Source of the DNA: the human T2T-CHM13v2.0 reference genome, Homo sapiens
DNA: 64,000 nucleotides
Assembly: GCF_009914755.1 (NCBI RefSeq)
Contig: NC_060945.1
Reading direction: 5' to 3' (one strand)
A model generated the notes under the pieces. The model was not told the DNA's origin, did no database searches, and saw nothing but the letters and a program-made list of their open reading frames with translations. Shown one piece after another: positions 8,475 to 49,912 of the stretch; within the stretch, counting starts at the first letter, position 1, and each line of letters opens with the position of its first letter. The translations under genes were made by a program, and so were the position numbers.

Positions 8475-8637
8475 ATCTTTCAGGAGCTTGGTCAATGTGT
8501 TCTGGACAAAGCAGGAAGATGTGACTGAAATCCTGAAAGCTGTCGGCTCCTGCAGCACAAGGATAATGATACATCTGGGTACATTTCTCTTCACAGCATT
8601 TGATAGTGGCTCCAAAGTGCTTACAAAATGCACATCG
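8475..8637 (-). CDS. BAGE2: BAGE exon 3 (163 nt) in the BAGE frame: (L)DVHFVSTLEP...TKLLKD
   Basis: Acceptor tttctctcctttacccctttcag|CG and donor AT|GTAAGT; phase fits exon 2 (CT+C=Leu); contained in ORF 8448..8693. Confidence 0.85.
8475..8637 (-). pseudogene. KMT2C: Duplicated KMT2C (MLL3) exon 7, PHD-type zinc finger region
   Basis: The other frame reads RCAFCKHFGATIKCCEEKCTQMYHYPCAAGADSFQDFSHIFLLCPEHIDQAPER, near-identical to KMT2C residues ~284-337. No preceding KMT2C exon was recognised in the window. Confidence 0.9.
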
Positions 8638-10023
8638 CTGAAAGGGGTAAAGGAGAGAAATCTCTTTATAAAACCTTGAAAAGGAATATTCAAATATAAG
8701 CTGGGAAGGTATAAAAAACTCTCTGTACATCACAAGTAAACAAATGGAACCTGCAAAATATTAAACAAAGGATTCGTTAGAAATAATAAAATCTACATTA
8801 CTCAATTTAGTGCTTCGTGTGCTACCAACTCATCCTTCCATTCAAATTAGAAAGTTAGAACTTCATTCCTTATATTTTCAAAAATAAATTGTGAAGCATT
8901 TTTGAAACAAAACCTAAAGATTTTTTTTTAAAGCAAATAGTAATATGGTTAAAGGGGCAGGTTTCTATATTGAGGATTATTATAAAGTTTTTAAATCCCA
9001 CCAAAACTAGTAATAGGAACATATATTATTTATGAGACATATTACTATTTTTTACCCTGCCTAAAAATAAATACAAAATAAACTCATCAATTATAAGTTA
9101 ACAGGGACATAAATAGTTAAAGACTCACAAAAAAAAAAAACTACATACTTCAATGTAGCAATCAACTTCAAATTTCTTAACAAAAGATGGAAATGTGGGG
9201 GAAAAAAATTAGTCATCTGGTATCTTTCCCATTTCAACCTGCCTCCATTATCTTGCAAGTGTTAAAACGCACAGAAATAAGCCCCAAACAAGAGGGGCAG
9301 TCTAGGGCAAGTGAACACATAAGAAGTCAGAAGAAATTATGTAAAATGTTGCATTTACTTATTCAGTTTTCCCTTAGAATGATTCACAAACTCTTCCTCA
9401 TTCTCCCAAGTCCATTTTGAGCATCATTTTCTTTGAAGAGAGTCTGATGGGCCCTGTACTGTACAGTATGAAATCTCTCTGTGGAAATGACTATCTAACA
9501 TAAATTTTTGTTTACACCGTTACATAGTACCTACTTGCTTATGCCATTACATGATCAGTTTATCTTTTTCTCATCCTAATCCAAGATCCTTCAATTGAGG
9601 CACCATACTATCTTTGTATCCAAAGCACCAAAAATGCTGCTTCAAACAGGCCCTAATAGATAGGTGTTCCTATACATATACCAAAAAGTCTTAACTTTTG
9701 GTGATCTTGTTTGTGAGTGTGGCTCATAAACAGCTTAGCTGAGATAACTGGAGCCTCACGTAGCAGAGACAGTTGGACCCTGCTAACATTACTGTGGATA
9801 TCTTCACATGTTACTACACTGACTTTATATTCTGCTAATTAACCAGGGACTACAGTAGTTAAAATTATAATTGTTTTCAATGTTTTATGTGTAAATCTGT
9901 ATTTCACATACTATCAAACTCTTCCTCATTGTCATCAGTCTACTGCATTGAATCAACATAACAAAGCTAAATGACTCCTGAGGGCCGAATCAGAAAGAAG
10001 AAAAGAAAGAGATACAACACTTT

Positions 10024-10217
10024 GGCCAGCCCAGTGGCTCACACCTGTAATCCCGGCACTTTAGAAGGCCAAGGCGGGCGGATCACGAGGTCAGGAGATC
10101 GAGACCATCCTGGCTGACACAGTGAAACTCCATCTCTACTGAAAATACAAAAAATTAGCCGGACGTGGTGGCAGGCACCTGTAGTCCCAGCTACTTAGGA
10201 GGCTGAAGCAGGAGAAG
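10024..10217 (+). mobile_element. 3'-truncated Alu (Y-like)
   Basis: gagatcgagaccatcctggct diagnostic; stops at ggagaag with no tail. Confidence 0.9.
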
Positions 10218-11235
10218 CTTCTAAATAACTCATAAACACTAATTACTGTTGTGACACTTTAATTTTATATAATATTTATAAGTATACAGAATAACATTTC
10301 AGTGCTATTTTGGCACTCAAGGGTATTAATGTATTAGAAACACAGAAAAAATATTTGTCTTCATTGATAAAGTGTAATAACCAGCTTTTACAAAACAGGT
10401 AATTTTTTATATTGTAACTCCCAAGGTATCTAAATATGTTTAGTGCATTAACAGAACCCAGAATTAACTGCAAATACAACACCTTGGTAGTCTAAATGTC
10501 CAAACAGAAAGTTCACGTAAATGTCGAAAGAAAAAGTACAATCAATCTGTTGAAAAATATTTATAACAACTCATTAGCATAACTAATTTCTGCTAAATTG
10601 TTAAAATCTAAAATCGCTTATTTTGATACCGTATGGCAAGTTTTGCAGAAGCCTTTTGCACTAAAAATAATCTTGGCAGATAAAATATAATGAGAGGTAA
10701 GTACATAATAACAGAAAATAATTTAAATTGACCAGCTTCTCAATGTCTTTCTCATTTTAGAAACACCAATATGTTCTCTTAATCATATCTGCAATGAAAA
10801 ATATTATATTAGCTAAACTATTATGAAAAGTACTGGAATATATCTAACATACTAATTTACAATATCATATAAAGGTATCAGTGAATAAAAGAAGGAAAAT
10901 AAAACACTACATTTAGGGGAACGCTTCAAACCCATATGTTACAATTAAATAGCTAATGAAGAGCACTCGGCATTAAAAGAAAACGTTTACTATATATACA
11001 CAGTCTGGAATGTATCTTCCTAAACCAAATAAAAAGGACTTGTAAAATCATAGACAATATCAAAGAATAGATTTCTACAGGGAACTTCTCAAATGTCAAC
11101 ACTCTTATACACTACACATAAAAGAAATCAAGCAAGTTAAAATATTAATAATATAATAAGTAATATATAATACATAAGTAACAATTACAAAGCTAATTAA
11201 CATTTGGGGAGGAGGGATAAAGTAAACAGCTCTTG

Positions 11236-11540
11236 GCCGGGCATGGTGGCTCACGCTTTTAACTCCAGCACTTTCGGAGGCTGAGGCAGGTGGATCATTT
11301 GAGCTCAGGAGTTCGAAACCAGCCTGGGCAACGTGGTGAAACTCCATCTCTACAAAAAATACAATAATTAGGTAGGCATGGTGGCTGGCATGCACCTATA
11401 GTCCCAGCTACTCATGAGCCTAGGGTGGGAAAATTGCTTGAGCCCAGGAGGTTGAGGCTGCAGTGAGCTGTGATCACGCTACTGCACTCTAGCCTGGGCA
11501 ACAAAAGTGAGAACGTGTCTATAAAAATTAAAAAAAAAAA
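11236..11540 (+). mobile_element. Alu (J-like)
   Basis: Full dimer with A-tail. Confidence 0.95.
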
Positions 11541-48663: not shown

Positions 48664-48665
48664 AC

Positions 48666-48766
48666 AGAGCTGTGCCATCTTCAGGCTCCAACCTCCAGCT
48701 CACCACAGGGGACTCCTCCTTCATCAGCCTGGCTTGGAGCAGCTGGGCAGACAATGCCAGAAAAAC
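48666..48766 (-). CDS. BAGE2: BAGE coding exon 2 (101 nt), [33 protein letters not shown]+CT
   Basis: Acceptor ctctaacactgccactttctgcatcctattgtag|GTT with a CTAAC branch-like motif; donor CT|GTGAGT; peptide is the BAGE family core. Confidence 0.92.
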
Positions 48767-49765
48767 CTACAATAGGATGCAGAAAGTGGCAGTGTTAGAG
48801 CCTCACCCTGTCATGCTGCCCACTGGGTGGCTGGGGCCAGTTTCAGCGAAGGCACTCACACCCACCCTCCAAAGTCCAGCCTCTCCTCCTAGACCAAGCT
48901 GGCCTCCTGACCTGGGGTGGGGACTGGAGACACCACAGTGTCCGAGGCTAGTTGGGGAGCAAGAACAGCAGAAACTCAGACCCAGCCAGTCCTCCCCACC
49001 CAAGTACCAGTTCCCATTCCTGACTCCTCCACCCACAGGACCCTGAGCCCCCATGGTGCCCACTACTCCATGCCTGGGGCTCCCAGATGGTACCCACAAC
49101 ACAGAGCAAGAGGGCAAGGGCCGGGTAACCATGGTGGGTGTGAGGGCCCTGCGGTGGTCAGAGGATTGCCACAAAAACTCTGTGCACCCTCCGCGTTCCA
49201 ACACGAGCAGAAGTTCCCCTTTCCTCCATGGACAATGCAACATTTCACAGCTCCCCTAAAGCACCCCCGACTGCCTGCCAGTTGGCATTGTTGCTGACAT
49301 TGTAGCTCATGATAGCTCACCCAACCCGCCCCCTGCATCGGCCAGTGTAGCAGCTAATAATGCCCCTAATTCCCCACCACCTTCCGCTGGCAGTGCACGA
49401 CGGCACACACAACCTGCCTCCAACCCCCCACCACCTTAGGCAGTGTAGACTCTGATAGCGCAGCAAACCTGCCCCACTGCCAGCAATTCAACACCTGATA
49501 GTGCCACCCACCAGCCCCCCACGGCAGGGAGTGCAGCTCCAAAAGCACACCAAACCCGCTCCCCCACCACCCCGCAAGCAGGCAGTGCAGCCGCAGAGAG
49601 CACACCTACCCTGCCACCTTTCTACTACTCTAACAGAGATGCAGTCTCCGTCACCACTACCAACCGTAGCCAGGCGAGCCGCGGTGGCCAAGGCTGCAGC
49701 CTCCAGCGTTGGGCACAGTCCCCACCTTCTCCTAGATCTCTAGCCGGTCAAGAGCAGCTCCAGCT

Positions 49766-49912
49766 GCCAGCCACCCTCCTACCACTCAGGCTGCACTCCT
49801 ACCACTCCAGCCGCCATCTTACCACTCCAGCCGCCATCTTACTGCTCCGGCCGCCATCTTACTGCTCCAGCCCCACTCCTACCGCTCAGGCCGCCCTCCT
49901 AACACTCCAGCT
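49766..49912. repeat. 20-bp tandem repeat, ~7 units (accactccagccgccatctt)
   Basis: Units start at 49781, 49801, 49821, 49841, 49861 and 49881, with degenerate edges. Confidence 0.9.
49823..49837 (-). CDS. BAGE2: BAGE coding exon 1 (MAAGV); alternatives 49843-49857 (MAAGA) and 49803-49817 (MAAGV)
   Basis: aagATGGCGGCTGGAGTG|GTAAGA: strong Kozak context followed by a phase-0 donor, repeated three times at a 20-bp period. Confidence 0.75.

What the first reader, a model, noticed from the sequence alone, without database searches (positions are those of the whole stretch)
8475..49857. BAGE exon 2 is a frame switch: two simple splice choices would restore the KMT2C PHD reading frame
Seen: the exon-1 donors are phase 0 (15 coding nt) and the KMT2C-derived exon starts in phase 0 of the KMT2C frame (CGA TGT = RC). 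Only the 101-nt exon 2 shifts it into the BAGE frame. Skipping exon 2 gives MAAG(A/V)-RCAFCKHFGATIKCC... An internal consensus-like donor in exon 2 (GTG|GTGAGC, GT at 48703-48702, after exactly 63 nt) gives [32 protein letters not shown]... The KMT2C frame of this exon is still open and keeps its Cys/His residues. Inference: a cancer/testis promoter could express a SET-less fragment of the KMT2C N-terminal PHD cluster (the BAP1/ASXL-interacting region), possibly a decoy. The exon starts part-way through the extended PHD domain, so folding is not assured.
Basis: partly seen in the sequence, partly recalled or inferred. Interest (0 to 1): 0.85.

Follow-up and report, generated by a model that had tools for sequence, protein, structure and literature searches.

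The report
Latent KMT2C reading frame in BAGE2

Summary
There are three ATG+donor units in exon 1, each with 15 coding nt. Exon 2 is 101 nt and has an internal GTG|gtgagc donor after 63 nt. Exon 3 begins in phase 0 of the KMT2C frame. Skipping exon 2 gives a 155-aa ORF and the internal donor gives 176 aa.

The frame cannot run far. It covers exons 3-5 only (150 KMT2C-like residues, about KMT2C 284-433) and stops at the first codon of exon 6. A 6.3-kb deletion removed the next KMT2C exons, and the exon-6 acceptor has moved.

The product would hold the C-terminal part of an ePHD, one whole PHD finger, and a second PHD finger that lacks its last zinc ligand. It keeps the published ASXL-contact residues (PMC11161652).

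An open frame is what a 3.4%-diverged duplicate is expected to show. Six of the 7 differences from KMT2C are nonsynonymous, and pN equals the neutral per-lineage rate. Both RefSeq transcripts include all of exon 2. Out-of-frame upstream ATGs and predicted NMD apply as well.

No isoform evidence could be examined. I read this as a neutral relic with a small untested chance of a decoy function.

The parts
49823..50080 (-). BAGE2 exon 1 (RefSeq). It holds 6 ATGs. The annotated BAGE start is at 49837-49835.
49767..49911 (-). 20-nt tandem array (7.2 copies). Three units carry an ATG plus a GT donor 15 nt later: ATG 49857 with GT 49842-41, ATG 49837 with GT 49822-21, and ATG 49817 with GT 49802-01.
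48666..48766 (-). BAGE2 exon 2, 101 nt. This is the exon that shifts the frame by +2.
48702..48703 (-). Internal GT of GTG|gtgagc, 63 nt into exon 2. It matches the consensus at 6 of 9 positions and has a U1 duplex energy of -8.1 kcal/mol, against -5.5 for the annotated donor. It is kept in 12 of 13 paralogous copies examined.
48352..48665 (.). Masked repeat directly abutting exon 2. Its edge completes the BAGE2-specific donor gtgagt; the other 12 copies examined read gtgatt, gtgctt or gtggct.
8475..8637 (-). BAGE2 exon 3, the first KMT2C-derived exon. In the KMT2C frame it encodes residues about 284-337 (RCAFCKH...), the C-terminal part of an ePHD.
8728..8730 (-). ATG in intron 2, 93 nt upstream of exon 3 and in the KMT2C frame. 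The frame is open from 8760 to 8428.
1..27289 (-). KMT2C-derived duplicated block, colinear with chr7:153438152-153465361 at 95-96% identity. It continues to the left of the window, where exons 4-12 and the first 930 nt of exon 13 match chr7.

Best explanation
BAGE2 is a young chimeric transcribed pseudogene. A promoter and two exons from a non-KMT2C segment were joined to an internal piece of a duplicated KMT2C gene. That piece starts inside the intron upstream of the RCAFCKH exon.

Exon 1 contributes 15 coding nt and exon 2 contributes 101 nt, so the canonical message reads the KMT2C exons one base out of frame and stops in exon 4 (109 aa).

The KMT2C frame is still open over exons 3-5 only because the copy is young, not because anything keeps it open. 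Skipping exon 2, or using its internal donor, would on paper give 155- or 176-aa ORFs covering KMT2C residues about 284-433. They cannot go further. A 6.3-kb deletion took out the next KMT2C exons, the KMT2C acceptor of the exon-6 homologue is mutated (ag to aa), and the exon 6 that is actually used begins with TGA.

If such isoforms exist at all, they are most likely rare, NMD-prone by-products that encode an incomplete PHD module.

Shown here: the anatomy, the ORFs, the deletion and the substitution pattern. Inferred: that the isoforms are rare or absent, and that the product would be unstable.
For: - Exons 3-12 map colinearly to the KMT2C locus at 96.5-100% identity. Exons 1-2 have no match in the 130 kb of chr7 searched. 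The block boundary is at window 27289, and no upstream KMT2C coding exon lies inside intron 2.
- ORFs of 109, 155 and 176 aa.
- The TGA at the start of exon 6 is present in the parent locus too, so this is a phase problem rather than a new mutation.
- BAGE2 intron 5 lacks parent-intron positions 6798-13115, which hold the NCRIC...MCKR exon, two further exons and the 5' part of a fourth. That first exon has a single genomic match, on chr7.
- A 1-nt insertion also breaks the KMT2C frame inside exon 6.
- Substitutions in exons 3-5: 6 nonsynonymous and 1 synonymous. pN is 0.0165 against a neutral per-lineage rate of 0.0168. Seven differences were seen where 9.0 are expected (P = 0.32). Strong constraint (omega 0.1) is rejected (P = 0.003).
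- Both RefSeq transcripts include the whole of exon 2.
- Five ATGs lie upstream of the annotated start. The ATG at 49857 has the same context and is out of frame when donor 49823 is used. PMC8227997 (passages read) reports reporter evidence for uORF control in the BAGE2 leader.
Against: - By crude measures the internal donor is at least as good as the annotated one, so some use of it is plausible.
- Exon 4 is 100% identical to KMT2C across a 241-nt mismatch-free tract, although its flanks are about 4% diverged. The chance of no difference is 0.032, a post-hoc figure for 1 of 3 exons.
- Every residue that PMC11161652 maps as an ASXL2 contact (D372, E387, K389, D400, V405) is unchanged.
- The canonical ORF is just as NMD-prone and BAGE2 RNA is still catalogued, so predicted NMD does not exclude a product.
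- I could not examine RNA-seq, Ribo-seq, MS data, GENCODE isoforms or the original BAGE papers.
Confidence: 0.8

Rival explanations
1. In testis or hypomethylated tumours, exon-2 skipping or the internal donor yields a 155- or 176-aa SET-less KMT2C fragment whose PHD2/3 groove binds the MBH helix of ASXL1/2/3 and competes with MLL3/4 for PR-DUB.
For: - The ORFs exist.
- Exon 4 is a complete PHD finger, identical to PDB 2YSM over residues 7-60.
- MLL3 aa 342-439 binds ASXL2 with a Kd of 1.4 uM. D372, E387 and D400 are critical, as are the MLL4 equivalents of K389 and V405 (PMC11161652, sections 6-9 and 14 read). All of these are retained in BAGE2.
- The internal donor has the best U1 complementarity in exon 2.
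Against: - The ORF ends at about K433, so the last zinc ligand of PHD3 is missing. I place that ligand at C435 from the 2YSM alignment and the offset derived here; no source names it.
- PMC11161652 describes the two fingers as fully integrated, places the groove at their interface, and says zinc-ligand mutations likely disrupt the structure.
- PHD3 also carries Y413H, P420R and V421I.
- The ePHD half in exon 3 lacks its first 38 profile positions.
- There is no purifying selection.
- NMD is predicted, and out-of-frame upstream ATGs are present.
- No RefSeq isoform exists, and no named public protein of 61-194 aa has this architecture.
Confidence: 0.05
2. The KMT2C frame is reached by another route: transcripts that start in, or retain, the end of intron 2 and use the in-frame ATG 93 nt upstream of exon 3. 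RefSeq's Gnomon 'KMT2C-like' models on paralogous blocks appear to do this.
For: - The frame is open from 8760 to 8428, with an ATG at 8730.
- The ATG is in frame in 9 of 11 copies. It is not in frame in the KMT2C parent or the BAGE5 copy.
- Three 'histone-lysine N-methyltransferase 2C-like' protein-coding genes start 98-101 nt upstream of their exon-3 homologues.
Against: - These are automated models whose exon structure I could not see.
- No such gene is annotated at BAGE2.
- The downstream limit is the same: a stop at exon 6.
- No promoter, CAGE or other transcript feature is annotated at this site.
Confidence: 0.05
3. The functional product is the canonical 109-aa BAGE-frame protein. It would be under selection, as the title of Ruault et al. 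2003 claims, and the KMT2C frame would be irrelevant.
For: - UniProt text quoted in PMC6630768, and PMC3084872, treat BAGE genes as encoding small proteins.
- The BAGE ORF is intact here.
- Exon 2 is open in 9 of 13 copies. The chr9 copy is frameshifted by a 1-nt deletion, and three chr5 copies carry a stop.
Against: - RefSeq now labels BAGE2 a transcribed pseudogene.
- The 71 BAGE-frame codons derived from KMT2C exist identically in length in the parent locus. They show 2 nonsynonymous and 1 synonymous difference, too few for any test.
- The stop in exon 4 predicts NMD.
- I could not read Ruault 2003.
Confidence: 0.1

Closest known systems
[quoted passage not shown] 2003, seen only as cited in PMC4041455, PMC11838408 and PMC3084872; UniProt text quoted in PMC6630768)
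   Same: The same locus and the same origin: non-KMT2C exons 1-2 fused to KMT2C-derived exons, a pericentromeric or acrocentric location, and small out-of-frame proteins with 'no homology to known domains' (PMC3084872).
   Different: In the papers I could read, nothing spells out that exon 2 alone causes the frame change, or that skipping it would restore a PHD-coding frame. That is an arithmetical corollary of the known structure, not a new element.
MLL3/MLL4 PHD2/3 module that binds the ASXL MBH helix (PMC11161652; PDB 2YSM and 9ATN appear)
   Same: BAGE2 exons 4-5 encode MLL3 residues 339-433. Exon 4 is identical to KMT2C, and D372, E387, K389, D400 and V405 are kept.
   Different: The functional construct is aa 342-439. 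Here the chain ends at 433, without the last zinc ligand, and it carries Y413H, P420R and V421I. Binding is untested.
RefSeq Gnomon models 'histone-lysine N-methyltransferase 2C-like' (LOC124908445, LOC124908444, LOC124907387, LOC128966781) on chr22, chr14 and chr13 of CHM13
   Same: Automated annotation already reads KMT2C-derived paralogous blocks of this family as protein-coding in a KMT2C-like frame.
   Different: Judging from the gene start coordinates, those models begin just upstream of the exon-3 homologue rather than at the BAGE promoter. None is annotated at BAGE2, and I could not see their exon structure.
Truncated human-lineage duplicates that act on the parent's pathway (SRGAP2C, NOTCH2NL, ARHGAP11B). 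Recalled from general knowledge; no call made.
   Same: A partial copy of a large gene, made by segmental duplication, that could retain one interaction domain.
   Different: Those cases have a demonstrated stable protein and function. Here there is no isoform, protein or selection evidence.

Membership tests
BAGE family (KMT2C-derived chimeric genes) | Exons 1-2 encode the MAAG.. leader plus the VFLALSAQ...EDGTA segment | tested here: met
   Exon 2 is 98-100% identical to 10 other copies.
BAGE family (KMT2C-derived chimeric genes) | The downstream exons derive from an internal KMT2C segment | tested here: met
   Exons 3-12 are 96.5-100% identical and colinear with chr7:153380191-153446757.
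BAGE family (KMT2C-derived chimeric genes) | Cancer/testis-restricted expression with promoter methylation in normal tissue | not testable with these tools
   Literature only: PMC3084872 passages report about 80-96% BAGE2 methylation in controls and describe BAGE genes as expressed only in cancer and testis.
PHD finger (Pfam PF00628), Cys4-His-Cys3 | A complete set of eight zinc ligands | tested here: met
   Exon 4 covers profile positions 1-47 of 47 (E = 1.7e-9) and is identical to PDB 2YSM residues 7-60.
PHD finger (Pfam PF00628), second finger (MLL3 PHD3) | A complete set of eight zinc ligands | tested here: not met
   Exon 5 covers profile positions 8-45 of 47 and the ORF ends ...WKCK then stop. 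The last Cys of the C-x2-C pair seen in 2YSM (WKCKNC) is not encoded.
Extended PHD / zf-HC5HC2H (PF13771) | A pre-PHD zinc knuckle plus an atypical PHD, forming one module | tested here: not met
   Exon 3 matches only profile positions 39-90 of 91. No upstream KMT2C coding exon lies in the duplicated block.
MLL3 PHD2/3 ASXL-binding module (aa 342-439) | The acidic and hydrophobic contact residues D372, E387, K389, D400 and V405 are present | tested here: met
   Translations, numbered with an offset of 283 + codon. The offset was checked against three residues named in PMC11161652 section 9.
MLL3 PHD2/3 ASXL-binding module (aa 342-439) | Both fingers folded and integrated, with measurable binding to the ASXL MBH | not testable with these tools
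   The joined protein could not be submitted for folding. The chain ends at 433, and Y413H, P420R and V421I lie in PHD3.
Functional truncated-duplicate (decoy) genes | Purifying selection on the retained frame | tested here: not met
   6 nonsynonymous to 1 synonymous change. pN is 0.98 of the neutral per-lineage rate, and omega = 0.1 is rejected at P = 0.003. Power is low for weak constraint.
Functional truncated-duplicate (decoy) genes | A transcript isoform that carries the frame | tested here: inconclusive
   Both of the 2 RefSeq transcripts include the whole of exon 2. No RNA reads, GENCODE models or ESTs were available.
NMD substrates (50-55-nt rule, established knowledge) | The stop lies more than 55 nt upstream of the last exon-exon junction | tested here: met
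   1431 nt (13-exon transcript) or 1152 nt (11-exon transcript) for the KMT2C-frame stop, and 1670 nt for the canonical stop.

The most novel reading that the evidence does not exclude
In testis and hypomethylated tumours, BAGE2 and its sister loci produce a 129-181-aa 'mini-MLL3' covering KMT2C residues about 284-433. The route would be exon-2 skipping, the internal exon-2 donor, or the intronic ATG. The PHD2/3 groove of this protein, with every mapped ASXL contact intact, would sequester the MBH helix of ASXL1/2/3 and uncouple PR-DUB/BAP1 from MLL3/4 enhancers. That would be a hominid-specific, cancer/testis-restricted antagonist of a tumour-suppressor axis.
Probability: 0.04. Interest if true: 0.65.

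Novelty: already known. Interest (0 to 1): 0.22.

Why it matters
If a BAGE-driven PHD2/3 fragment were made and bound ASXL proteins, a cancer/testis locus would interfere with the MLL3/4-BAP1 enhancer axis. That would be worth knowing for tumour biology. The evidence here makes it unlikely.

The practical value lies elsewhere. The analysis fixes the limits of any KMT2C-frame product from this family at residues about 284-433, because the next exons are deleted in every copy shown. It also lists the exact junctions to look for.

It shows as well that differences between the acrocentric copies and KMT2C, for example L291F and T316S, are printed in papers as KMT2C mutations (PMC10723222 table). 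This fits the known collapsed-duplication problem at KMT2C (PMC9942314).

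Tried and rejected
(1) Upstream KMT2C exon. I looked for a coding exon carrying the pre-PHD half inside intron 2 (window 8638-27289) and found none. The same filter found none in 50 kb of the parent intron either.

(2) Gene conversion as the reason for exon 4's 100% identity. Rejected: the identical tract is only 241 nt, and the 500-nt flanks on each side carry 43 mismatches in 995 nt.

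(3) Lower exon divergence as a sign of constraint on BAGE2. Exons differ at 7 of 450 nt and non-exon sequence at 1237 of 36811 (Fisher P = 0.033). Rejected as evidence of constraint: if only the KMT2C lineage is constrained, 9.0 differences are expected, and P(7 or fewer) is 0.32.

(4) AlphaFold2 on the exon-3 peptide alone. Mean pLDDT was 48, from a single sequence with no zinc. Uninformative in either direction.

(5) Word search for named proteins of 61-194 aa containing the exon-3 peptide. One named hit among 1 scored candidate: an orangutan automatic model that switches frames and ends in a SUMO-like tail. Ten sample-only candidates were left out by the tool. This search cannot see proteins longer than 194 aa.

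(6) Literature. Searches found no paper describing exon-2-skipped or internal-donor BAGE isoforms. Ruault 2003 is not held, I did not try to fetch Ruault 2002, and supplements are closed, so this blank is weak. PMC3757347 contained none of my search terms.

(7) A trained splice-site model (PWM or MaxEnt) was not possible. I used consensus matches and U1 duplex energy instead. Both are crude.

(8) PDB search with exon 3 gave only a marginal PHF7 match (E = 0.006).

Full report
OBSERVATION.

On the minus strand, RefSeq exon 1 (50080..49823) ends in a 20-nt tandem array (7.2 copies, 49767-49911). Three units of the array each hold an ATG followed 15 nt later by a GT. The ATGs are at 49857, 49837 and 49817, and the last exonic bases are 49843, 49823 and 49803. 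RefSeq uses 49823.

Exon 2 (48766..48666) is 101 nt. An internal GT at 48703-48702 follows exactly 63 nt, in the context GTG|gtgagc.

Exon 3 (8637..8475, 163 nt) starts CGA TGT, which is phase 0 of the KMT2C frame.

Script translations for each donor with its own ATG give:
- 109 aa in the BAGE frame with the whole of exon 2;
- 155 aa with exon 2 skipped;
- 176 aa with the internal donor.

The last two are in the KMT2C frame.

WHAT THE LOCUS IS.

BAGE2 exons 3-12 map colinearly to the KMT2C locus on chr7 at 96.5-100% identity. The first 930 nt of exon 13 also match chr7, at 93% identity. Exons 1 and 2 have no match in the 130 kb of chr7 that I fetched.

The KMT2C-derived block covers window 1-27289, matching chr7:153438152-153465361 at 95-96% identity. 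The rest of the window, including exons 1-2, comes from elsewhere. Copies of the exon 1-2 segment lie on chr5, 9, 18 and other chromosomes.

No upstream KMT2C coding exon lies in the duplicated part of intron 2. Exon 3 is therefore the first KMT2C exon the locus owns.

This is the published picture of the BAGE family, 'juxtacentromeric reshuffling of KMT2C/MLL3'. I saw it as UniProt text quoted in PMC6630768 and in passages of PMC4041455 and PMC11838408. The primary paper, Ruault 2003, is not held. [quoted passage not shown]

CHM13 shows 11 copies of the exon-3 homologue: three on chr21, three on chr13, two on chr22, and one each on chr14, chr15 and chr7.

HOW FAR THE KMT2C FRAME RUNS.

I fetched the exons to the left of the window. 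The frame stays open through three exons:
- exon 3;
- exon 4 (chr21:10663777-10663948);
- exon 5 (chr21:10661815-10661929).

That is 450 nt, or 150 codons. It ends at the first codon, TGA, of exon 6 (chr21:10653763).

The same TGA is present in the parent locus, so it is not a new mutation. In KMT2C, several exons lie between the homologues of exons 5 and 6. BAGE2 intron 5 lacks positions 6798-13115 of the parent intron, a 6.3-kb deletion. That stretch holds the 171-nt NCRIC...MCKR exon, two more exons and the 5' part of a fourth.

The first of those exons has only one genomic match, KMT2C itself (1 of 1 candidate; closed regions are not shown). The loss is therefore shared by all copies the tool shows.

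Two further breaks follow:
- The KMT2C acceptor of the exon-6 homologue reads aa instead of ag in BAGE2, and RefSeq exon 6 starts at an AG 18 nt downstream.
- A 1-nt insertion breaks the KMT2C frame inside exon 6.

The KMT2C frame is thus capped at 150 residues.

WHAT THOSE 150 RESIDUES ARE.

Pfam results:
- Exon 3 matches zf-HC5HC2H positions 39-90 of 91, so the pre-PHD part is missing.
- Exon 4 is a complete PHD finger, positions 1-47 of 47.
- Exon 5 covers PHD positions 8-45 of 47.

Exon 4 is identical to PDB 2YSM (MLL3 tandem PHD) over residues 7-60. In 2YSM the second finger ends WKCKNC, whereas the ORF here ends WKCK and then stops.

For numbering I used the residues D372, E387 and D400 named in PMC11161652 (section 9 read). 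All three land on D, E and D of my translation with an offset of 283 + codon. On that numbering the fragment is KMT2C 284-433. That C435 is the missing last zinc ligand is my reading of the 2YSM alignment with this offset; neither Pfam nor the paper names it.

PMC11161652 (sections 6-9 and 14 read) reports the following:
- MLL3 aa 342-439 (PHD2/3) binds the ASXL2 MBH helix with a Kd of 1.4 uM.
- The groove lies at the interface of two 'fully integrated' fingers.
- Zinc-ligand mutations 'likely disrupt' the structure.

All the contact residues it maps are unchanged in BAGE2: D372, E387 and D400, and the MLL4 equivalents of K389 and V405. But the last zinc ligand is not encoded, and PHD3 carries Y413H, P420R and V421I.

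IS THE FRAME MAINTAINED?

BAGE2 differs from KMT2C at 7 of 450 nt in exons 3-5. Six of these are nonsynonymous (L291F, G315D, T316S, Y413H, P420R, V421I) and one is synonymous.

Non-exon aligned sequence differs at 1237 of 36811 positions, or 3.36%. The observed pN of 0.0165 is 0.98 of the per-lineage neutral rate.

If only the KMT2C lineage is constrained, 9.0 differences are expected against the 7 seen (P = 0.32). A strongly constrained frame (omega 0.1) would give at least 6 nonsynonymous changes out of 7 with P = 0.003. The chance that 7 random changes create no stop is 0.67.

The one oddity is exon 4. It shows no difference in 172 nt, sits inside a 241-nt identical tract, and has flanks about 4% diverged. 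The post-hoc P is 0.032. I record it but do not read it as selection.

SPLICING AND TRANSLATION CAVEATS.

By consensus matches, both exon-2 donors score 6 of 9. By U1 duplex energy the internal one is better, at -8.1 against -5.5 kcal/mol. These measures are crude.

The internal GTG|gtgagc is ancestral. It is kept in 12 of 13 copies examined, including copies on chr5 that are only 89% identical.

The annotated donor, by contrast, is specific to BAGE2. The other 12 copies read gtgatt, gtgctt or gtggct. In BAGE2 a masked repeat (48352-48665) abuts the exon and completes gtgagt.

Both RefSeq transcripts (2 of 2) contain the whole of exon 2.

With the annotated donor, the ATG at 49857 has the same AGTAAGATGG context and is out of frame. 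It opens a 25-aa uORF, or an 82-aa BAGE-frame ORF when exon 2 is skipped. Exon 1 holds five ATGs upstream of the annotated start. PMC8227997 (passages) reports reporter evidence for uORF control in the BAGE2 leader.

The KMT2C-frame stop lies 1431 nt upstream of the last junction, and the canonical stop lies 1670 nt upstream. Both predict NMD by the 50-55-nt rule (established knowledge), so NMD does not separate the two.

COMPARISON WITH WHAT IS KNOWN.

The gene, its chimeric origin and its out-of-frame small ORF are all known. RefSeq's automated annotation already calls four KMT2C-derived paralogous blocks 'histone-lysine N-methyltransferase 2C-like' protein-coding genes. Three of them start 98-101 nt upstream of their exon-3 homologue. 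That is just upstream of an intronic ATG which is in frame with exon 3 in 9 of 11 copies, including BAGE2 at window 8730. I could not see the exon structure of those models.

A word search with the 111-codon open stretch around exon 3 found one named protein in the 61-194-aa range. It is an orangutan automatic model, not a BAGE-KMT2C-frame fusion.

Searches found no paper on exon-2-skipped or internal-donor isoforms. The primary BAGE papers and all supplements were out of reach.

VERDICT.

The most likely reading (0.8) is a neutral relic frame in a young chimeric pseudogene. The decoy model keeps a small probability (about 0.04-0.05), because the ASXL-contact residues and one complete PHD finger are intact, and it can be tested directly with junction counts. 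Interest is low to moderate.

Noticed in passing
window 48352-48666: A masked repeat abuts exon 2, and its first bases complete the BAGE2-only donor gtgagt. The other 12 copies examined read gtgatt, gtgctt or gtggct there. In the chr13 BAGE copy the frame simply reads on for a few codons to a stop.
   Followed up: partly
window 8728-8730 (frame open 8760..8428): An ATG in intron 2, 93 nt upstream of exon 3, is in the KMT2C frame in 9 of 11 genomic copies. It is not in frame in the KMT2C parent or the BAGE5 copy, where an indel intervenes. Three RefSeq Gnomon 'KMT2C-like' genes on chr13, chr14 and chr22 start 98-101 nt upstream of their exon-3 homologues.
   Followed up: partly
L034 (chr21:10653764-10661814, BAGE2 intron 5) against chr7:153421494-153435905: A 6.3-kb deletion removed three KMT2C coding exons and the 5' part of a fourth. 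The first of them has only one match in the genome (chr7), so the loss predates the spread of the family.
   Followed up: yes
L003 (chr21:10653062-10653783, exon 6 and its acceptor): The KMT2C acceptor ag reads aa in BAGE2, and RefSeq exon 6 starts at an AG 18 nt downstream. A 1-nt insertion in an A run, at alignment column 632 of the 702-nt exon 6, breaks the KMT2C frame there.
   Followed up: yes
window 49767-49911 and loci L036-L046: The number of ATG+donor 20-nt units differs between copies: three in BAGE2, two in the chr13 BAGE copy and one in most others. Only BAGE2 and BAGE have out-of-frame upstream MAAG start codons.
   Followed up: partly
window 8475-8637, codons 8 and 33 of the KMT2C frame: The paralogue differences L291F (all 10 non-KMT2C copies) and T316S (9 of 10) are listed as KMT2C amino-acid changes in a table of PMC10723222. 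By search listing they appear in two other papers. This fits read mis-mapping at the collapsed KMT2C duplication described in PMC9942314.
   Followed up: partly
P0001 (UniRef, Pongo abelii, 153 aa): An orangutan automatic protein model starts in the intron-derived stretch. It reads exon 3 in the KMT2C frame, switches to the BAGE frame midway, and ends in a SUMO-like tail. It looks like an annotation artefact, but it shows that a copy of this block exists in orangutan.
   Followed up: no
L001 (chr21:10663722-10663963, around exon 4): Exon 4 sits in a 241-nt tract with no difference from KMT2C, although the 500-nt flanks on each side carry 43 mismatches in 995 nt. Only 8 of 1243 identical tracts are 172 nt or longer.
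   Followed up: partly
bioRxiv 10.64898/2025.12.22.696095 (passages): Gorilla acrocentric arrays are reported to amplify a 'BAGE2 (129 AA)' fragment. 129 aa is exactly the length from the first in-frame Met of exon 3 (codon 22) to the exon-6 stop in the KMT2C frame here. This could be a coincidence; I did not check it.
   Followed up: no
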